64,000 nucleotides of DNA from positions 1 to 64,000 of the IMG/VR virus record IMGVR_UViG_3300030117_007745, one strand, 5' to 3'. Shown one piece after another: positions 10,393-20,137 of the stretch. The notes beneath the pieces were generated by a model, which worked only from the letters and a program-made list of their open reading frames with translations, was not told the origin of the DNA and ran no database searches. This DNA is from a virus. The position numbers were made by a program, and so were the translations under genes. How positions within the stretch are numbered: position 1 is the first letter of the stretch; each line of letters starts with the position of its first letter.

Positions 10393-13300
10393 CTATTGAT
10401 TTACACAAGCAAATCCATTTGCTTTGTCAATCTCAATTGTCATATCAGCGATATCCTTCAAGTGATCTACATGAGAAATCAATAATACAGTTTGATAATA
10501 GGACTTCACCATATCTAAAATACGTATGAATCCCTCCATATTTTCCGCGTCCAAAGCAGTTGCTGGCTCATCAAGAATAAATATAGACCCCTTTGGAAGA
10601 GAAGAGACTGAAAGGAGTGATAACCTTATGGCCATGGCCGCAATCGTTTTTTCTGCGCCGGAGCCCATCTCAATTGGTCTAGCTTCATATTTCGGATGTT
10701 TAATAAAAATATCTAATTTATTTCCTTCCGATTCAAAAAAGACCTCAAAGTCTACAACATTCGCCAAAACTTTACTTATTTCATCATTGATCACTGGTAG
10801 TTTCTTCTTGATGACATCCAGAGATATGCCATTGGTGTGCATGCAACGCATAAAAAGATCGTATGCTGCAAAGCTGTCGCGGAGGTTTTCCATCTCTTCT
10901 TTTTGATTCTTTAGATTTTCTAATCTCTGCTCAAGAGAGCCTCGCTCCTTGATGAGAGAAACTATTTCTTCATTACAATCACTAAGAACGCTTTTTTGGC
11001 CTCCTAGTATATTTTGCTGTTTTACTTTCTCTCCGATAAGTTGCTCTAAATTTTCAATAGCTTCACGATTTTCTTCGTATTCATCTATTTTTCTATCTAA
11101 ATTTTCTATTTCAAGATTTAAAGTCTTTATTTTGCTCTTGTTCTTGTCTATCACTAATTCATTCTGATTGATGGAATTGTAAATATCATCCCTCATTTCC
11201 AATACTTCTTCGTATTTTTCTATCTTTCTCTCTAATGATTTAGGATCTAAAGTCTGAATATCCTCGAATAGGCCCTCGGTCTCCTCCCTAAGCTCTTGAA
11301 GGTTTTTCTCAATAACAGTTATATTTCCTTGAGCACTGTAGGCATCTCTAATGAATTTACAGGAAGAATATTCGTTTCCACAGGGCACCTCTAGTAATAG
11401 CTTGACCTTGTTTTTGTTTTGATGCAAACGGTATTCCTGTTGTTCTATTGTTTGATTAGTCCCTTCAAGCAATACTCTTTTGCGATTGATTTCCTCTTGG
11501 TGTGTCTTGAGGGCCTCAATATCAAAGTTACTTAATACTTCACTAATCCTCTGATGGTCGATTCTTTTTGTTTTGCATTCTTGTGTGAGAGTTTCTATTT
11601 GGCCTTGTAAGACATCCATCTCTTTTTGTTTAGAGATTTGTTCTTCTTTAACCTCTACAATATTAATTATGTCTGCTGGTATTGAATCAATTTTTCGTTC
11701 AATCTCTTTGATAGAGTCTTCAGTGTTCTCAATTGATTTTGAGTATTTACGACATTTTCGTTGTTGTTTCTTTTCTGCGGCAAAGTTTTGTTCAAGTTCT
11801 GCTGTTGTTGCTGAAATGTCAGCGTCATATTCTTTTCCCTCCAATAGTTTCAAAGCACCCTTCATGTCAGATGCATCTTCTTTAGCCTTTTTAAATTTTT
11901 TGTCAAAAATTTCTAGATCAAGGAATTTTCCTAAAATTTCTTTTCTTTTTGTAGACCCTTCATTAATAAATGATAGGCTATCGACCTGTGAGGCCATAGA
12001 GGTAAGTAGAAAGTCATCAACAGTTCCGAACAATTTTCTTATGTTTTTATCTGTCCCATTGCGACTATCGCCATTTAGCTCGTTTTCTTCTTGCATTACT
12101 TTATCATAATAGGAGAATTCAATATCAGTTTTAGCCTCCATAGTCTCATTGCCCTTAAGCTTTTTTAAATACTTGACTGAACTTCTTTCAATAAGATAGT
12201 CTCTTTCGCCTATTGATATCTCAAGCCTCCCTCGACCTTCATCCTTGTTTTGGTTGATGACATTTAAATTTTTTCTCTCATTTTTACTAGTAGAATTAAA
12301 AAGAGTGTATAAAAAAGCATCAATAATAGATGATTTTCCTGAGTAGTTTTTTCCAAAGATTCCCACAATTCCATGAAGCTTTTCAAAATCAACCCTATTT
12401 CCTTCCCCATAATTAAAAAGATTGTCCCACTCAAATGATTTCAGAGACCAGTTAATGTTTCTTGAAACCTCCTCTTCCTCTTCGGCCATGGTATTGTATT
12501 TTCTATTGAGCGCAAAAACTTTTTCTAACGTCTCTGATTTTGCCTCATAATCTTTAAGGTATTCATCTATTAGTTCCTCTTGAACCATTGGATCTCTAAG
12601 ATCCTCTATGTTAATGCCGTCAGTTATATCCTGAACAGATCCCCTTTCTCCGCTCGAACGATTGAGAAAAGTAACACTTTCTGGACTAAATCTACCCTTT
12701 GCAATGTCTAGTGCCCGTCGCATAACATCTAGAGGTAAATTATTCTGAGATACCAAGCGAAGACGTGCGCCTTTGGGTACATCCATGTTCTTCGGCATCT
12801 TTCCCTTCGGAGTAAGCTCAATTGTTATAAACGGCTTTGGATTTGTAAGAGGAAAGTGTTCGCAAGTAAAACTTTCTTTGTCTTCAATGTCCCAAAGCAA
12901 AAATCCCTTGTCTTGGCTCTCACCAAAGTTCTGCTGAACTAGGGATCCGGGGTAGGCCACTTTCCCCATATCGTCAAGTTTCTGATATGTCTTGTGAATG
13001 TCACCGAGTAATACATAATCAAAAGGCTCAAATGATTTGATATCAACATCGCCATGATCCATGACCCAGCCAGTATCCGTAGTCACTCCAGCAACAGAGC
13101 CGTGAAAAAGTGCGATATTAATCTTACTCTTATCAGTTGGATCAATCCACTGATCTTCATCAACAATCGACAGAACATTAAGAACAAACCCATTTCCAAG
13201 ATCAACTTCTTGAGAAAACTTGTGAAAATGAATATCCTTGTGGTCTAGAGCCTCAACAATTGGAGTTACGGCATCAATTTTGCCCGGGTTGCGAAGATTG

Positions 13301-13545
13301 AGGTCATGGTTCCCAAGTATAACATGGAGGGGCGCTATGTCTGCTAAGTTCTCAAAAAGCTTGGCAGTCATATGAAAATAAGCAGGGCTTAATTGCAATT
13401 TGGTGTGTGCAGTATCACCAGTATTGACGATGATGTCTGGTTTTAATTCTCTCAGTTTTGCATAGAGTTCTTCAAACACAGCACTATATTCTTCATGATA
13501 CCTATGATTCCGGATGTGGATGTCTGATATATGAGCGATTTTCAT
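10393..13545 (-). CDS. Fused Mre11/SbcD nuclease + Rad50/SbcC ATPase (T4 gp47-gp46-like)
   Basis: N-terminal phosphoesterase motifs SDIH, TGD, GNHD, FHG, GDIH, YPGS; Walker A GKNYSGKSS; coiled coil with CxxxxxxC hook (PCGNEYSSC); signature GSGAE; Walker B ILDEP; H-loop ISH; start placed at ATG 13545. Confidence 0.92.
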   Translation of the reverse strand: MKIAHISDIHIRNHRYHEEYSAVFEELYAKLRELKPDIIVNTGDTAHTKLQLSPAYFHMTAKLFENLADIAPLHVILGNHDLNLRNPGKIDAVTPIVEALDHKDIHFHKFSQEVDLGNGFVLNVLSIVDEDQWIDPTDKSKINIALFHGSVAGVTTDTGWVMDHGDVDIKSFEPFDYVLLGDIHKTYQKLDDMGKVAYPGSLVQQNFGESQDKGFLLWDIEDKESFTCEHFPLTNPKPFITIELTPKGKMPKNMDVPKGARLRLVSQNNLPLDVMRRALDIAKGRFSPESVTFLNRSSGERGSVQDITDGINIEDLRDPMVQEELIDEYLKDYEAKSETLEKVFALNRKYNTMAEEEEEVSRNINWSLKSFEWDNLFNYGEGNRVDFEKLHGIVGIFGKNYSGKSSIIDAFLYTLFNSTSKNERKNLNVINQNKDEGRGRLEISIGERDYLIERSSVKYLKKLKGNETMEAKTDIEFSYYDKVMQEENELNGDSRNGTDKNIRKLFGTVDDFLLTSMASQVDSLSFINEGSTKRKEILGKFLDLEIFDKKFKKAKEDASDMKGALKLLEGKEYDADISATTAELEQNFAAEKKQQRKCRKYSKSIENTEDSIKEIERKIDSIPADIINIVEVKEEQISKQKEMDVLQGQIETLTQECKTKRIDHQRISEVLSNFDIEALKTHQEEINRKRVLLEGTNQTIEQQEYRLHQNKNKVKLLLEVPCGNEYSSCKFIRDAYSAQGNITVIEKNLQELREETEGLFEDIQTLDPKSLERKIEKYEEVLEMRDDIYNSINQNELVIDKNKSKIKTLNLEIENLDRKIDEYEENREAIENLEQLIGEKVKQQNILGGQKSVLSDCNEEIVSLIKERGSLEQRLENLKNQKEEMENLRDSFAAYDLFMRCMHTNGISLDVIKKKLPVINDEISKVLANVVDFEVFFESEGNKLDIFIKHPKYEARPIEMGSGAEKTIAAMAIRLSLLSVSSLPKGSIFILDEPATALDAENMEGFIRILDMVKSYYQTVLLISHVDHLKDIADMTIEIDKANGFACVNQ

Positions 13546-13793
13546 TTTGCCTTCCTTACTAATTCTAATTCTTTGTTCCAAACTGGAATTGGGTATTTTG
13601 ATCCCATGGGCACAATCATGTAATAATACTTATTCCAATCATGATTTGCACCTTTCATTTTTCCCTTCACTTCCGAGATTATTCCTAGAGTATTAAGACT
13701 GTCTTTTATCAATACTAGGTCTCCGACCTCAAAGTTTGGATGACTCCCAAGAACTTTGTGGGCATCGGATCTATTTGATTGTTTTTTACCCAT
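13542..13793 (-). CDS. Small SH3/KOW-like hypothetical protein
   Basis: FEVGDLV...GII...EL pattern; start uncertain (overlaps upstream ORF). Confidence 0.5.
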   Translation of the reverse strand: MGKKQSNRSDAHKVLGSHPNFEVGDLVLIKDSLNTLGIISEVKGKMKGANHDWNKYYYMIVPMGSKYPIPVWNKELELVRKAK

Positions 13794-14354: not shown

Positions 14355-14390
14355 AAAAAAAGCACCCCTACAATATAGCAGAGGTGCTTT
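14355..14390 (-). terminator. Intrinsic terminator downstream of the lipoprotein gene
   Basis: Minus strand AAAGCACCTCT-(10-nt loop)-AGGGGTGCTTT followed by a U-tract. Confidence 0.75.
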
Positions 14391-14400
14391 GTAAAGTCAA
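14372..14400 (-). promoter_or_regulatory. Sigma70-type promoter TTGACT-17-(TGc)TATATT overlapping the terminator
   Basis: -35 at 14395-14400, -10 at 14372-14377 inside the hairpin loop; AGGAG SD and ATG (14342) downstream. Confidence 0.65.
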
Positions 14401-14409
14401 GAACTATTT

Positions 14410-16209
14410 TTATTTTTGAAGCCTAGGATAGATGCCTGACCTTAAATCCACGTCTCCAAACAAAATAACTCGGTTGTCCCCAGTTGGAACTCTAACTGAG
14501 CTTTTTACTCGATTCCCGTTTACTCTGGTTGAAGTTTTTTGATATTGACTTGCGTCTAGAGGGATATGAGTAATTTTAGTTTCCACAAGCGGTACAACCT
14601 CCTCCGTTGTGCAAATGCCATCATAATTTGTGTCTGCCCAAACATACAGTTTCCCAAATTCCTTGTCTTTAACGCTAACAGTTCCATCTTGGTTGGAGTC
14701 CATAGAGGCTAGGTGAGTAAACCCGCCTGAGTAGTTTGGCGATGTTCCGAAAAACTCTGTCCCATTGTCTGCAATTCCATTAGAGTTTTTGTCAACGAAA
14801 AGAAAACCATCACCACTAAGCCAGCTAACTGCTGTTTTTCTTTTGCCAAACATTGAAAAATTAACTCCATTTTCAACTGATGTGACATCAAAGCGGCCGT
14901 TATTATTCAAATCAATAACAATAGGGTCTGAAACATTGCATGGCACGACTTTAAAAATCTTTACAGCCGCCAAAGCAAACTCATCTTGTATACCCTCTTG
15001 TAAGGCGTTACTATAGTCCGTTTGAGCTTGAGCATACATAATTTCATCATCACTATTGACTGGCACGTAATCATCACACAGGGGGTTTTGCTCCATAGCC
15101 TGACTAATAGTATTCATGGAGTCGTTAAATACTGGATCTAAGATTGACTGGTCTGCTTGACAGACTTCAATTGGGTCTGACATTAGGGGGTAATCTCCTG
15201 TATATCCGTTAGTTGTCAGCCAATTATTCATACTATTAATAAAATGTTGCCTGCCGACAATAAGGCCTTTTTCTGCCGAGCTTTTTACAGGCGATGGATT
15301 GTTGTTGCATAGCTGCTTTGACTTAAGATCAACCCTAACCATCACGCGAGCTTGCTCTAAGCCACTAACCGCGCCCTGCTCAAACCAAAAATCTTGCTCA
15401 CTAAGGTCGGGGTTGTAGCTATCCCTACTAGCACTCAAGGTACTGTAAAGTTTAGAATAAGACTCTGATCGCGCTTGATCTACCAAATACTCACATGCAT
15501 AACCATTCATAACCCCTTGGTTGTTATAAAATTCAACATAAGGGCACGGAGAGGTTTCCGGAAGGGTCTCATCCTCATTTGTAATTTCGTAATTAGGATC
15601 AAGCCCCAAGTCTTCTAATGCCAAAGAGACTTGAGATAAATAAAGATCTTTTCCTATACCTAGGCCTCCAAAGATATTGTCTCTCAAAATTTCAATATCT
15701 GCGAACTCGTCCACTGTGAGATCTTCTAAGGTCACTTCGTCGTCAGTAGTTTCAACCTCAACTTGCTCCTGCTCATCGGTGGAATCGACCTCTGTTTCAG
15801 GGGTTGTTTCCTCTGTTTCAGAGGTTGTTTCCTCTGTTTCAGGGGTTGTTTCCTCTGTTTCGGGGGTTGTTTCCTCTGTTTCAGGGGTTGTTTCCTCTGT
15901 TTCAGGGGTTGTTTCCTCTGTTTCAGGGGTTGTTTCCTCTGTTTCAGACGGAACTGTGTTAGTTTCATTGTTTTCGCTATTGTTTTCCACTTCAGAGGCT
16001 TGGTCTGTCTCGGTACCGGCTTCTTGCGGAGTTAAGGTAGTTTCTCCTACCTCATTAGTTGTAGTTGTAGTTGTGGTTGTTGCGGTGTTATCTGTTGCTC
16101 CCGTGAATTGGATTGTTTTTTGCTCTCCAGTTTCTCCAGTTGTTGTTTCCGTATCCTCACAAGCAACCATGCAAAATACAGCCATAGCTGCGACAATATA
16201 GTTTCTCAT
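14410..16209 (-). CDS. Lipoprotein with Thr/Glu-rich stalk and C-terminal FrpC-like self-processing module (Asp428-Pro429)
   Basis: Lipobox MVA|C17; ETEETTP repeats; C-terminal SDPIVIDLNNNG...DGFLFVDKNSNGIADNGTEFFG...GFTHLASMDSNQDG...LYVWADTNYDGI matches the motif order of the FrpC SPM as recalled. Confidence 0.8.
   Translation of the reverse strand: MRNYIVAAMAVFCMVACEDTETTTGETGEQKTIQFTGATDNTATTTTTTTTNEVGETTLTPQEAGTETDQASEVENNSENNETNTVPSETEETTPETEETTPETEETTPETEETTPETEETTPETEETTSETEETTPETEVDSTDEQEQVEVETTDDEVTLEDLTVDEFADIEILRDNIFGGLGIGKDLYLSQVSLALEDLGLDPNYEITNEDETLPETSPCPYVEFYNNQGVMNGYACEYLVDQARSESYSKLYSTLSASRDSYNPDLSEQDFWFEQGAVSGLEQARVMVRVDLKSKQLCNNNPSPVKSSAEKGLIVGRQHFINSMNNWLTTNGYTGDYPLMSDPIEVCQADQSILDPVFNDSMNTISQAMEQNPLCDDYVPVNSDDEIMYAQAQTDYSNALQEGIQDEFALAAVKIFKVVPCNVSDPIVIDLNNNGRFDVTSVENGVNFSMFGKRKTAVSWLSGDGFLFVDKNSNGIADNGTEFFGTSPNYSGGFTHLASMDSNQDGTVSVKDKEFGKLYVWADTNYDGICTTEEVVPLVETKITHIPLDASQYQKTSTRVNGNRVKSSVRVPTGDNRVILFGDVDLRSGIYPRLQK
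15789..15946. repeat. 21-bp tandem repeat x~7.5 encoding ETEETTP
   Basis: Unit cctctgtttcaggggttgttt, near-perfect (two single-base variants). Confidence 0.95.
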
Positions 16210-16222
16210 TTATTCTCCTTTT

Positions 16223-17696: not shown

Positions 17697-17725
17697 ATTA
17701 TATTACACTTAAAACTAAATGTCAA
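17697..17725 (-). promoter_or_regulatory. Consensus sigma70 promoter TTGACA-17-TATAAT, 6 nt before the resolvase ATG (probably leaderless)
   Basis: Minus strand TTGACA TTTAGTTTTAAGTGTAA TATAAT CTGTTC ATG. Confidence 0.8.
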
Positions 17726-18971
17726 GTTTTAATTTAAAAGTCATATCTCTGCTCAGTTTTTTGTTTATAGGAGTAGATACTTTAGCGACACCAATACAAT
17801 TCATATCTTCATCATAAATTTTTACTTTAGATACAAACGTTTGCTTTTGGAAGCTTTCTGTTAAGTCTGTAAAAGCTCCACTAATGGTGTTTTTGATAAT
17901 TAGCTTTTCTGGCTCTTTGTAATAAGTTGAACCAGAAAATGGATCTAAACTTTGTGAAAACTGTATGTATGTAGGATTGTTCGAATGGTTCAACTCTCCC
18001 GCAACTGCATGAGCAAACATGGTCATAACACTTGTTTCTGTTGAGCCAGAGAACCTCAAAGCGAAGCTGCTGCTAGGGATATTTCTTCCCAAACTTGCTG
18101 TTTCTGCCCCAGTGCCATAATAAACCCATTTTGGAGATTCAGTACCCCCAAGATAAGGCTCAGTATGGTCTGGGTCTAGGTCCCAACTTCCAGTAAGCAA
18201 TATAAATCCTTCGTTATAGAGGACAACGCCTGCGACTGCGCCAGAGCCATGGAGGGCTGGCCTGAGTTCATTTGCGGCCCCAGATACTTGAATAAGCTCA
18301 CCATTCTTATTAACGTCCTTTAGTCTGCCTGCCAAAGTACCACTAACAAAAAAGTCTAACTCTACAGTGCCTTTTTCTATTGAACTACCGTAAAATATTG
18401 ATGGAATGCTTATTAGGTTTGAGACCTGAATTTCTTTTGCCCAGATCAAGGGAGGGACCGAGCCTCTGACTGAATAGTGGGGGCTTAGATAACTATAATG
18501 ATTGAGGGTATTTTTGAGGGCCACAATTCTATTCCGTTGGCCTGTTTTATTGGTAGTCAGAGAATTTGTAAAGTATTGAGATCCATGATTCAAAGGAAAA
18601 TATTCTCTAGAAATTGTGGCAGATTTAGGATAGAATCCTAAAAAGCTCGTTCCATACAGGGCAGAGTTAAAGGCTCCCGTTGTCACAGTTTTCAAGCTAG
18701 TAAGATAGCCATCCTTAGTGACTTCTGGCCTTATACGCCTCATTCCGAGCGGGGCGGAAAGGTCATCTGGGTTGTCCCTATCAACATTATATTCATACAA
18801 GCTTATGTGCCCGGGCGGAACATTGGGCACTGAGCCTGTAAAAGCTCCAGACAATTCAGGTCTATTTTGAAAATATACTACATCTTGATAAATGTAAAAT
18901 CTGGCACTAGGATTGCTTTTGACTACATTTCTCACAATGTCATCAGGTCCAAAGGCAAAGATTGTGCTCAT
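17715..18971 (-). CDS. Virion structural protein (baseplate/tail-associated), paralog of 18992-20137
   Basis: Shares G.V.Y..G, (E)LNHSNNPTY and IGVAKVSTPI.K...KLKLDI motifs with its neighbour. Confidence 0.6.
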   Translation of the reverse strand: MSTIFAFGPDDIVRNVVKSNPSARFYIYQDVVYFQNRPELSGAFTGSVPNVPPGHISLYEYNVDRDNPDDLSAPLGMRRIRPEVTKDGYLTSLKTVTTGAFNSALYGTSFLGFYPKSATISREYFPLNHGSQYFTNSLTTNKTGQRNRIVALKNTLNHYSYLSPHYSVRGSVPPLIWAKEIQVSNLISIPSIFYGSSIEKGTVELDFFVSGTLAGRLKDVNKNGELIQVSGAANELRPALHGSGAVAGVVLYNEGFILLTGSWDLDPDHTEPYLGGTESPKWVYYGTGAETASLGRNIPSSSFALRFSGSTETSVMTMFAHAVAGELNHSNNPTYIQFSQSLDPFSGSTYYKEPEKLIIKNTISGAFTDLTESFQKQTFVSKVKIYDEDMNCIGVAKVSTPINKKLSRDMTFKLKLDI

Positions 18972-18991
18972 GCTACACCTCTCTCAGCTCT

Positions 18992-20137
18992 TTAGTAATC
19001 CAATCTGACCCTAAGAACTAACTCAGTGTCTGGTGTTTTCTGCAACGGTTCAGAGGTTTTTGCAACTGCTAACAACTCATTGTTTGCAGAATACAACCCA
19101 ATTGTTGTGATAAAAGATACTGGCTGGTCTAAGCTTTCTTCTTTTACTCTAATCTTACTATTAAGCAAATAAGATGGATTAGAACTGTAATTAAATTCAT
19201 TGTGAGAAGCCCTACAGAAATATACTGTTGAATTTAGCTCAGTTGTATTATTAAAACTTAGATTATAGAGCCTGTTTCTAATAGCGTCTGCCGACCCCGA
19301 AATTGATGATCCAGATATAAACTGGAATCCTGTGGCTCCGGCTAATCTATTTTGGGGATTGCCCAAGTTGGCAGTCCCTTGTGCATTGGCTAATACGCCC
19401 CCATGGGCTGCATCATTAAAAATCGAACCAGAGACAACTGCAATTCCTGCTTGGTAAAATACTAGACCAACAGGGACTTGATCGTTTGTCAAATATGTGG
19501 TTCCATCGCCGGTGCTAGATGTAGCGTATAGAATTCCATAATCTCCCGCTGGAGAATTTACTAAGTAAGATGTTGAGCCACTTAAATCAGAAGCTTTCAC
19601 TCTCCTACCGAAGTTTTGGCCATCAAAACTAGCTGATGCTGGAGGAGTGCCAACTGAGCCAGTGATCCCAAATTCTAAAGTAAAAGTTCCTTTTTTGATT
19701 TCATCTTTTTGAAGAAGTCTTGCAAAGTTAATAAAGAAAACCTCATTAAGTTTTTTGCCGCCGGAACTAAGGTTACCATCTTCGTCAAATTGCCTAATAG
19801 AACCTGTTGCGTCGTGACCCATCAGAACTTGGGCCATTTGATTGTACATGTTGATCTTATCTTTGTTTTGAGTATTGGCAGATGATGACATGCCAGAAAC
19901 ATTAGAGTAACCAACTGTTATATCAAAAATATGATTTGCTGAAGAACTTAAGAAAGGGTAGTCATAAACGGACTGGAAAAGTCCGTGAGAAAAGTTCTTA
20001 ATATTTTTTTCACTAGTTGAATTCCCTTCATTGTAAGTACCAGAGACAATAGAACCTGTGACTGGTATGTTCTCGTGAAGCAGTGTTCTGGTAGAGGTTA
20101 TATCATTATTTAAAAATGATTTAAAAGTAGTAGCCAT
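18992..20137 (-). CDS. Virion structural protein (baseplate/tail-associated)
   Basis: EFNYSSNPSY and IGLYSANNELLAVAKTSEPL.K...RVRLDY C-terminus; Ser/Thr/Gly rich. Confidence 0.6.
   Translation of the reverse strand: MATTFKSFLNNDITSTRTLLHENIPVTGSIVSGTYNEGNSTSEKNIKNFSHGLFQSVYDYPFLSSSANHIFDITVGYSNVSGMSSSANTQNKDKINMYNQMAQVLMGHDATGSIRQFDEDGNLSSGGKKLNEVFFINFARLLQKDEIKKGTFTLEFGITGSVGTPPASASFDGQNFGRRVKASDLSGSTSYLVNSPAGDYGILYATSSTGDGTTYLTNDQVPVGLVFYQAGIAVVSGSIFNDAAHGGVLANAQGTANLGNPQNRLAGATGFQFISGSSISGSADAIRNRLYNLSFNNTTELNSTVYFCRASHNEFNYSSNPSYLLNSKIRVKEESLDQPVSFITTIGLYSANNELLAVAKTSEPLQKTPDTELVLRVRLDY

What the first reader, a model, noticed from the sequence alone, without database searches (positions are those of the whole stretch)
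14410..16209. Phage lipoprotein carrying an apparently intact FrpC-type Ca2+-dependent self-processing (clip-and-link) module
Seen in sequence: lipobox MVA|C17, a ~140-aa Thr/Glu stalk, a Cys-containing middle domain, then D428-P429 (codons 14923-14928) followed by a 171-aa domain: PIVIDLNNNG...WLSGDGFLFVDKNSNGIADNGTEFFG...GFTHLASMDSNQDG...LYVWADTNYDGI...E. Established knowledge: the Neisseria FrpC self-processing module begins D|PLALDLDGDG and continues [22 protein letters not shown]...LAELDSNGD...LRVWQDLNQDGIS. It cleaves the Asp-Pro bond on binding Ca2+, leaving an aspartic anhydride that cross-links to nearby lysines. Inference: the phage displays a membrane-anchored, stalked covalent coupling protein on the infected cell envelope. 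It might cross-link or block receptors (superinfection exclusion), capture incoming virions, or tether the host to other cells. The module is best known from secreted RTX proteins; here it has no RTX repeats, has a lipoprotein anchor, and sits in the primase transcription unit, so it would be expressed early.
Basis: partly seen in the sequence, partly recalled or inferred. Interest (0 to 1): 0.88.

Follow-up and report, generated by a model that had tools for sequence, protein, structure and literature searches.

The report
Phage lipoprotein with self-cleaving SPM
An uncultured marine phage encodes a lipid-anchored, stalked envelope protein that ends in an intact copy of the calcium-triggered "clip-and-link" module known from secreted RTX proteins, so it probably cuts itself and glues its helical head covalently to a partner, which in related bacteria is predicted to be a neighbouring β-propeller lipoprotein.

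Summary
ORF 14410-16209 (-) encodes 599 aa: a lipobox (Cys17), a 142-aa Thr/Glu stalk, a 6-Cys all-helical head (aa 160-427), then Asp428-Pro429 and a 171-aa FrpC-type self-processing module (SPM). The SPM match is strong: PDB 6SJX at E 3e-15 for the protein alone and 4e-37 for the family profile, and Foldseek TM 0.72. All four Ca2+ sites, both Trp and the D579 equivalent are kept. There are no RTX repeats.

The gene is not unique. More than 110 clusters exist, all with an invariant "PCNV[S/G]D|P". This scan has already flagged the same family in two other phage genomes.

New here:
- Cellular relatives occur only in aquatic Myxococcota-type MAGs.
- In 14 of 15 of those loci the gene neighbours a second lipoprotein (Ig domain plus PQQ/BamB-like β-propeller).
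- A controlled complex prediction supports head-propeller binding (0.79 against 0.02 for the best control).
- None of six phage records searched encodes the propeller.

My reading is a natural "binder-SPM" covalent lock that phages captured without its partner, probably aimed at a host envelope protein. Cleavage, linkage, target, host and expression timing are all untested. It is a new variant of a known kind, of moderately high interest.

The parts
14410..16209 (-). Whole gene, 599 codons plus stop: lipoprotein with C-terminal SPM
16215..16220 (-). Ribosome-binding site AAGGAG, 5 nt before the ATG
   Evidence: read from the sequence
16159..16209 (-). Signal peptide with lipobox (aa 1-17, M-V-A-C17). 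The Cys is invariant in the 27-row alignment and a lipobox Cys is present in nearly all full-length family members.
15733..16158 (-). Acidic Thr/Glu/Pro stalk (aa 18-159). It is predicted disordered (pLDDT 25-42) and varies in length between homologues.
15789..15947 (.). 21-nt tandem repeat, 7.6 copies, 97% matches, encoding ETEETTP. This expansion is specific to this phage copy.
14929..15732 (-). Head ('payload') domain, aa 160-427: all-alpha bundle with six invariant Cys and no known fold relative. It contains the predicted partner-binding helix tip (about aa 234-255).
14923..14928 (-). Scissile Asp428-Pro429 codons, inside the invariant motif P-C-N-V-[S/G]-D-P
14413..14925 (-). Self-processing module, aa 429-599 (Pfam PF26745 'SPM'). 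It has four EF-hand-like Ca2+ sites, W463/W524, and D586 as the FrpC D579 equivalent.
14359..14390 (-). Intrinsic terminator (13-bp stem plus T-run) 20 nt after the stop, overlapped by a promoter-like site at 14372-14400 for the next gene. The hairpin is kept through compensatory changes in five syntenic phage loci.
17697..17725 (-). Perfect sigma70-type consensus (TTGACA-17-TATAAT) just before the RuvC-like gene that heads the RuvC-primase-lipoprotein block. This is weak evidence: it overlaps the end of the upstream ORF and leaves almost no leader.

Best explanation
The gene encodes a phage lipoprotein built like a natural 'binder-SPM' covalent probe.

Proposed steps:
1. The Sec pathway exports the unfolded chain. 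Lgt and LspA lipidate and cleave it at Cys17. This is inferred from the conserved lipobox.
2. A long acidic Thr/Glu stalk holds a disulfide-bonded helical head away from the membrane. The structure is predicted; the disulfides are inferred from six invariant Cys.
3. The C-terminal SPM stays unfolded in the Ca2+-poor cytoplasm and folds once it meets the Ca2+ of the periplasm or outside medium. FrpC SPM binds Ca2+ at about 150 uM. It then cleaves Asp428-Pro429 autocatalytically and releases the 171-aa module. This is inferred from full conservation of the FrpC SPM fold, the Ca2+ ligands and the Asp-Pro bond.
4. The head is left with a C-terminal aspartic anhydride, which acylates a nearby amine on whatever the head is docked to and forms an isopeptide bond. 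This is inferred from FrpC and NeissLock chemistry.
5. In the cellular relatives (aquatic Myxococcota-type MAGs) the docked partner is predicted to be the lipoprotein encoded by the neighbouring gene, an Ig domain plus PQQ/BamB-like beta-propeller. The phages carry only the armed binder. Its target is therefore most likely a host envelope protein of that type, locked irreversibly during infection, for example to mask or disable it. This last step is speculative.
For: SPM identity:
- E 2.6e-15 for the single sequence and 4.1e-37 for the profile against 6SJX.
- Foldseek probability 1.00, TM 0.72.
- Precomputed Pfam PF26745 = SPM.

Residue mapping to FrpC:
- D414/P415 correspond to D428/P429.
- Site D419-x-D-x-D-G plus D456 corresponds to D433-x-N-x-N-G438 plus D467.
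- D462..E474 corresponds to D473..E485; D499..D510/511 to D504..D515; D521..E532 to D526..E537.
- W451/W519 correspond to W463/W524; D579 to D586.
- Most of these positions are invariant across 27 members at 36-77% identity to P0001.

Family conservation:
- 'PCNV[S/G]DP' is present in every homologue that covers the site, followed by about 165-182 aa in full-length members.
- A lipobox Cys is found in nearly all full-length members.

Engineering precedent: an SPM placed C-terminal to a binder is enough for Ca2+-triggered cleavage and ligation to a docked target (PMC7846742).

Partner:
- 14 of 15 MAG loci have a neighbouring Big_7 plus PQQ/BamB-like propeller gene, most with a lipobox-like N-terminus.
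- Complex prediction scored 0.79 (runs 0.68, 0.80, 0.79) against a best control of 0.02. That mark was reached by 58 of 80 solved complexes and 2 of 110 mismatched pairs. Partner pLDDT was at least 80 and the runs agreed in at least 88% of contacts. My own alignments were used, so these counts hold only roughly.
- The core interface residues of the head (Y241, D244, Y251, S252, L254) are kept in the phage copies.
- Invariant K509 and near-invariant K526 of the propeller flank the predicted interface.

Phages lack the partner: the propeller profile found nothing in six phage records (CheckV completeness 9-85%), while the positive control matched in 4 of 4 MAG genomes.
Against: - Nothing is measured: no cleavage, adduct, localisation or expression data exist.
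- The residue before Asp is Ser here and Gly in some relatives. In FrpC-SPM fusions, Gly, Asp or Pro at that position gave minimal cleavage, while His, Tyr and Trp were fastest (PMC7846742). The rate here could therefore be slow.
- The FrpC D478 equivalent is Thr489, although D478 was reported as not catalytic (section title).
- The model is uncertain at the cleavage site itself (pLDDT under 50 at aa 421-426).
- The complex was predicted for a cellular pair, not for the phage protein.
- Peripheral interface positions differ systematically in phages (V248S, E253K).
- The phage's host is unknown, so no target can be named.
- Some distant cellular relatives of the head lack an SPM altogether, so the head can function without covalent chemistry.
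Confidence: 0.6

Rival explanations
1. The SPM is only a self-removing C-terminal pro-domain. It keeps the chain export-competent or acts as a folding aid, then cuts itself off. The anhydride is simply hydrolysed, and the mature head acts non-covalently.
For: Hydrolysis is a normal fate of the SPM anhydride when no partner is docked (PMC7846742). Distant cellular relatives of the head end just after the last conserved Cys and lack an SPM, so covalent linkage is not essential to the head fold.
Against: Simpler signals or proteases would do that job. The head-SPM combination has been kept for a long time across phages and bacteria at 36-77% identity to P0001 with an invariant cleavage motif. In bacteria it has a predicted docking partner with conserved lysines next to the interface.
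Confidence: 0.2
2. Intramolecular 'own-goal' stapling. The anhydride reacts with a lysine of the head itself, such as near-invariant K417 or K420 that lie 8-11 residues upstream. This would cyclise and stabilise the head's C-terminus rather than link it to another protein.
For: K417 is at least 90% conserved and sits in the motif A-V-K-I-F-K-V-V-P-C-N-V-S-D. Self-cyclised species were seen with engineered binder-SPM fusions (PMC7846742).
Against: K420 is Glu in several phage members. No coordinates were available to test the geometry. A disulfide at C424 would already pin this tail.
Confidence: 0.1
3. Host-function substitute rather than weapon. The phage copy replaces or supplements the host's own SPM-lipoprotein to keep an envelope function running during infection, as an auxiliary gene would.
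For: The gene appears to have been taken from Myxococcota-type bacteria more than once: the tree needs 3 label changes. The core of the partner-binding helix is conserved. Another phage gene (L031) carries MopE-type motifs, also found in a protein of one MAG locus flank.
Against: The family is found in only 12 of 301 sampled Myxococcota genomes, so it is not a core function. The host is unknown. Phage GC is 37% against 53-66% in the MAG loci.
Confidence: 0.1

Closest known systems
Self-processing module of Neisseria meningitidis FrpC/FrpA and Actinobacillus pleuropneumoniae ApxIVA (PDB 6SJW, 6SJX; Pfam PF26745)
   Same: Same domain: an Asp-Pro bond at its N-terminal edge, four EF-hand-like Ca2+ sites, the Trp pair, the D579 equivalent and the overall fold.
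   Different: In FrpC the module is internal to a large type-I-secreted RTX protein and is followed by RTX repeats. Here it is the extreme C-terminus of a 599-aa Sec/lipobox lipoprotein with no RTX repeats, and it is encoded by a phage. The literature describes the SPM as exclusive to RTX proteins (PMC7078468).
NeissLock (engineered binder-Y-D|P-SPM fusions; PMC7846742, PMC12538545)
   Same: Identical layout: a binding domain, then Asp-Pro, then a C-terminal SPM. After Ca2+ the binder carries the anhydride and ligates to a docked target.
   Different: NeissLock is man-made. This is a natural protein with a lipid anchor and stalk, Ser rather than Tyr before the Asp, and an uncharacterised helical binder.
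FrpD-FrpC pair of N. meningitidis (frpDC operon; PMC5233953)
   Same: A clip-and-link protein and a lipoprotein partner are encoded side by side. The partner binds the part that ends up carrying the reactive Asp. The cellular relatives here show an analogous two-gene arrangement with a predicted complex.
   Different: Here both proteins are lipoproteins, the partner is an Ig domain plus beta-propeller unrelated to FrpD, and the phage carries only the SPM-bearing half.
Phage-encoded receptor-blocking lipoproteins (T5 Llp, Cor of phi80/N15). This comparison is from general knowledge and was not tested here.
   Same: A phage lipoprotein made in the infected cell and directed at a host envelope protein is the functional analogy proposed.
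   Different: Those are small non-covalent binders with no sequence or fold relation. No receptor or exclusion phenotype is known here.

Membership tests
FrpC-type self-processing module (Pfam PF26745 SPM) | Significant sequence match to characterised SPMs over the whole module | tested here: met
   E 2.6e-15 for the single sequence. The family profile gives E 4.1e-37 and covers 6SJX residues 2-173 of 182. PF26745 is precomputed on the protein and named SPM.
FrpC-type self-processing module (Pfam PF26745 SPM) | Scissile Asp-Pro at the N-terminal boundary | tested here: met
   D428-P429 align to FrpC D414-P415. The pair is invariant in the family wherever the site is covered.
FrpC-type self-processing module (Pfam PF26745 SPM) | Four EF-hand-like Ca2+ sites and the W451/W519 pair (PMC7078468) | tested here: met
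   The residue map is, checked against paper sections. Most ligand positions and both Trp are invariant in alignment A1.
FrpC-type self-processing module (Pfam PF26745 SPM) | SPM fold | tested here: met
   Foldseek against 6SJX: E 9e-10, probability 1.00, TM (target) 0.72, 174 columns. The model's pLDDT in the module is mostly 72-91.
FrpC-type self-processing module (Pfam PF26745 SPM) | Ca2+-dependent autocleavage and isopeptide formation | not testable with these tools
   This needs protein biochemistry.
Clip-and-link RTX exoproteins (FrpC/ApxIVA class) | RTX nonapeptide repeats and a C-terminal type I secretion signal downstream of the SPM | tested here: not met
   No GGxGxDxUx motif and no Pfam hit. 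The protein ends with the SPM and starts with a lipobox signal peptide.
Bacterial lipoproteins (Lgt/LspA substrates) | N-terminal signal peptide ending in a lipobox with invariant Cys | tested here: met
   MRNYIVAAMAVFCMVA|C17. Homologues show L-[VIA]-[AG]-C at the same place, and C17 is invariant in A1. No dedicated predictor such as SignalP or LipoP was available.
Superinfection-exclusion / receptor-masking phage lipoproteins (Llp/Cor-like) | Binding to and inactivation of the phage's own receptor; early expression | not tested
   Host and receptor are unknown. The promoter scans are not informative.

The most novel reading that the evidence does not exclude
Phages have captured only the 'armed' half of a bacterial two-lipoprotein clip-and-link system. 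They would use it as a Ca2+-triggered suicide binder that covalently and irreversibly locks onto a host envelope beta-propeller lipoprotein during infection. That would be the first covalent phage-to-host protein ligation and the first natural binder-SPM-target triad outside RTX proteins.
Probability: 0.3. Interest if true: 0.85.

Novelty: new variant of a known kind. Interest (0 to 1): 0.66.

Why it matters
The SPM is described in print as a feature of a subset of secreted RTX proteins, and its natural targets are poorly defined. This family shows three things:
- The module also works as the C-terminal cap of Sec-exported lipoproteins.
- A lineage of large marine phages has kept it for a long time.
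- In bacteria it comes with a genetically linked, confidently predicted docking partner.

That gives a simple two-protein system for asking what clip-and-link chemistry is for in nature. It also suggests a new way for a phage to modify its host's envelope, by irreversible covalent capture. Finally, it offers natural binder-SPM pairs to the protein-engineering field that built NeissLock.

Tried and rejected
Context was obtained with the search for related loci instead.
- The local Pfam copy lacks PF26745. NCBIfam gave only noise on the stalk.
- Megablast of 10 kb against cultured phages found no match.
- The head domain has no recognisable relative. Foldseek PDB gave E above 0.3. VIA-align wide gave a best Z of 5.7, below the helical-bundle background. 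BFVD gave E above 0.28. The Atlas feature search returned nothing usable. A new fold is not claimed.
- The propeller partner was not found in the phage's own record or in five other phage records. These records are 9-85% complete, so absence is not proven.
- Promoter-like sites are not enriched over shuffles. The T4-type late motif TATAAATA and the motif ACTATTTA noted elsewhere in this genome do not occur near the gene. Expression timing is left open.
- A virion-protein role was rejected because of the conserved lipobox.
- Contamination or mis-binning was rejected as an explanation for the MAG copies. Those loci have 53-66% GC, belong to 4-11 Mb genomes, and share essentially only this gene with the phage.

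Full report
**What is there.** The minus-strand ORF 14410-16209 encodes 599 residues. It starts at an ATG preceded by AAGGAG. The protein has four parts:
- a signal peptide ending in the lipobox M-V-A-C17
- a 142-residue stalk (aa 18-159; 35% Thr, 28% Glu, net charge -46) that contains a 21-nt x 7.6 tandem repeat encoding ETEETTP
- a middle domain with six Cys
- from Asp428-Pro429 (codons 14923-14928) to the C-terminus, a 171-residue domain

**The SPM is real and complete.**
- phmmer against all PDB chains finds only the FrpC self-processing module (6SJX, 6SJW) at E 2.6e-15. The query's D428-P429 fall on the FrpC D414-P415 position.
- A profile of 27 family members raises this to E 4.1e-37 and extends the match to residue 173 of 182.
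- The AlphaFold2 model (module pLDDT mostly 72-91) matches 6SJX with Foldseek probability 1.00 and TM 0.72 over 174 columns.
- I mapped the residues that the structural paper (PMC7078468) defines as functional. All four EF-hand-like Ca2+ sites, the W451/W519 pair and D579 have counterparts: D433/N435/N437/G438 plus D467; D473..E485; D504..D515; D526..E537; W463/W524; D586. Most are invariant across members at 36-77% identity to P0001.
- Only the D478 equivalent differs (Thr489). The paper reports that D478 is not catalytic.
- There are no RTX repeats.
- The precomputed Pfam label on the protein, PF26745, is Pfam's SPM family. It is missing from the local Pfam copy.

**It is a phage gene and part of a large family.**
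- The window belongs to a 112.6-kb IMG/VR virus record. It carries portal, large terminase, baseplate-wedge and tail-fibre genes.
- TerL is 46% identical to that of Flavobacterium phage immuto and 42% to a Microcystis phage.
- A word-indexed search returned 113 clusters of full-length homologues, mostly from marine metagenomes.
- Every homologue that covers the site has the motif P-C-N-V-[S/G]-D-P. In full-length members about 165-182 residues follow to the C-terminus. Nearly all full-length members have a lipobox Cys.
- In six viral contigs the gene sits in the same order as here: virion genes, RuvC-like, primase, this gene, cytidylyltransferase, SbcC-like. In other related phages it sits elsewhere.
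- This scan has already flagged the same family in two other phage genomes.

**Cellular relatives.**
- A scan of one genome per prokaryotic species found 15 loci. All are in MAGs labelled Myxococcota, Myxococcales, Bradymonadales, Deltaproteobacteria or simply (uncultured) proteobacterium.
- These loci have 53-66% GC against 35-46% for the viral ones. They share essentially only this gene with the phage and belong to 4-11 Mb genomes.
- The family was found in 12 of 301 sampled genomes of that phylum.
- In a maximum-likelihood tree, the main phage clade (this gene, L017-L024 and a sister group that is also phage-borne) is one well-supported group (98/98) set among MAG sequences. Two further viral lineages branch separately. 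The viral/cellular label needs three changes.
- The tree is unrooted. Transfer from bacteria to phages is therefore an inference from the greater cellular diversity and the extra partner gene.

**The head domain.**
- Residues 166-420 are predicted with confidence as a bundle of long helices (pLDDT 85-93 in the full model; pTM 0.73 when folded alone).
- The six invariant Cys argue for an oxidising compartment, that is, outside the cytoplasm.
- No solved or viral predicted structure resembles it above background.
- A profile of the head alone, run against 1.84 billion representative proteins, finds only 101 clusters, and most full-length ones have a lipobox-like N-terminus. Most carry a C-terminal SPM. 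A few distant ones stop just after the last conserved Cys, and others have a different C-terminal tail.
- The head is thus the conserved 'business end' and the SPM is an add-on that most members keep.

**A predicted partner.**
- In 14 of 15 MAG loci a conserved gene lies beside it, directly downstream in 13. It encodes a Big_7 Ig domain plus a PQQ/BamB-like beta-propeller. Most copies also have a lipobox-like N-terminus.
- I ran the controlled complex prediction on the L004 pair with my own alignments. The score was 0.79 (runs 0.68, 0.80, 0.79) against a best control of 0.02. That mark was reached by 58 of 80 solved complexes and 2 of 110 mismatched pairs. Partner pLDDT was at least 80 and the runs shared at least 88% of contacts. 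The counts hold only roughly because my own alignments were used. This supports binding but does not show it.
- A helix tip of the head (about aa 234-255 in the phage protein) contacts residues spread along the propeller sequence (aa 291 to 588).
- The core head residues (Y241, D244, Y251, S252, L254) are kept in phage copies, while peripheral ones change systematically (V248S, E253K).
- On the propeller, invariant K509 and near-invariant K526 lie within 2-3 residues of interface positions. I could not obtain coordinates to measure the distance from the head's C-terminal Asp.
- The propeller profile finds nothing in this phage record or in five others of 9-85% estimated completeness. It matches in all four MAG genomes used as positive controls.

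**How it most likely works.** By analogy with FrpC and with engineered binder-SPM fusions (PMC7846742):
1. The chain is exported unfolded and lipidated.
2. Outside the cytoplasm the SPM binds Ca2+. FrpC SPM binds at about 150 uM (PMC7078468). Seawater Ca2+ of about 10 mM, a figure from general knowledge, is far above that.
3. The SPM folds, cuts Asp428-Pro429 and leaves.
4. The stalked head then bears an aspartic anhydride that acylates an amine on whatever it is docked to.

In the bacteria that partner is probably the neighbouring propeller lipoprotein. The phage carries only the armed binder, so its target is probably a host envelope protein, perhaps of the same type. What the phage gains is not addressed by any data; receptor masking, exclusion or disabling an envelope machine are all possible.

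Caveats:
- Ser precedes the Asp here and Gly in some relatives. Gly, Asp and Pro gave minimal cleavage in FrpC fusions.
- The model is poor at the cleavage site itself.
- The host is unknown.
- Hydrolysis or self-cyclisation are possible fates of the anhydride.

**Transcription.**
- The gene follows the primase gene by 13 nt.
- A strong hairpin terminator lies 20 nt after its stop. That hairpin is conserved through compensatory changes in five syntenic phages and is overlapped by a promoter-like site for the next gene.
- A perfect sigma70 consensus lies before the RuvC-like gene. It overlaps the upstream ORF's end and leaves no leader. Promoter-like hits are no more frequent than in shuffles.
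- No late-type motif is nearby.
- 'Early' is plausible but not shown.

**Novelty.**
- The domain is known and catalogued.
- This architecture (lipobox, stalk, helical head, terminal SPM, no RTX repeats), its presence in phages, and the linked propeller partner are absent from the papers I could search. One of those papers states that the SPM is exclusive to RTX proteins.
- I rate it a new variant of a known kind. Interest is moderately high, tempered by the lack of any experimental data and by the fact that the scan has met the family before.

Noticed in passing
L002-L016 (e.g. L004:9453-11258): In Myxococcota-type MAGs the SPM-lipoprotein gene is paired with a second lipoprotein gene (Big_7 Ig domain plus PQQ/BamB-like beta-propeller, about 580-750 aa). 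This looks like a two-lipoprotein clip-and-link operon analogous to frpD-frpC.
   Followed up: yes
P0145, P0146, P0154, P0160-P0162, P0167 and P0173-P0215: Distant cellular relatives of the head domain either end just after the last conserved Cys ('...C-G-L-G-P', no SPM) or carry a shared C-terminal tail motif resembling P-R-T-S-G-I-V-S-T-L. The tail might be a sorting or processing signal.
   Followed up: no
L030:4090-7425 (MT835772.1, human-gut 'Bacteriophage sp.' contig): An ORF of more than 1,112 aa has an SPM (Y-V-D|P-L-V-L-D-F-D-K-D-G) followed by RTX-type repeats. This is the classical clip-and-link architecture on a contig deposited as phage (unverified record).
   Followed up: partly
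L031 (G000:100844-103018, outside the window): A 724-aa phage protein carries three MopE-type putative metal-binding motifs (PF11617). The same motif occurs in a protein of one MAG locus flank (L006). It has a 45%-identical homologue in viral locus L024. This is another possible link between these phages and Myxococcota.
   Followed up: partly
window 10393-13581 (-): A 1,062-aa ORF seems to fuse an SbcD-like metallophosphoesterase N-terminus (aa 8-99) to an SbcC-like ATPase (aa 338-1058).
   Followed up: no
window 14359-14400 (-) and the same place in L017, L018, L021-L023: A composite element is conserved after the SPM gene: a -35-like TTGACT/TTGACA immediately before a terminator hairpin whose loop holds a -10-like hexamer. 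The hairpin is kept through compensatory base changes. It could be a terminator and a restart promoter sharing one site.
   Followed up: partly
window 15733-16158 (-): The stalk is 35% Thr and varies in length between phages.
   Followed up: no
window 17715-20137 (-): Two conserved ORFs (418 and 381 aa) directly upstream of the RuvC-like gene have no PHROG or Pfam match, yet they are syntenic in six related phage contigs.
   Followed up: no
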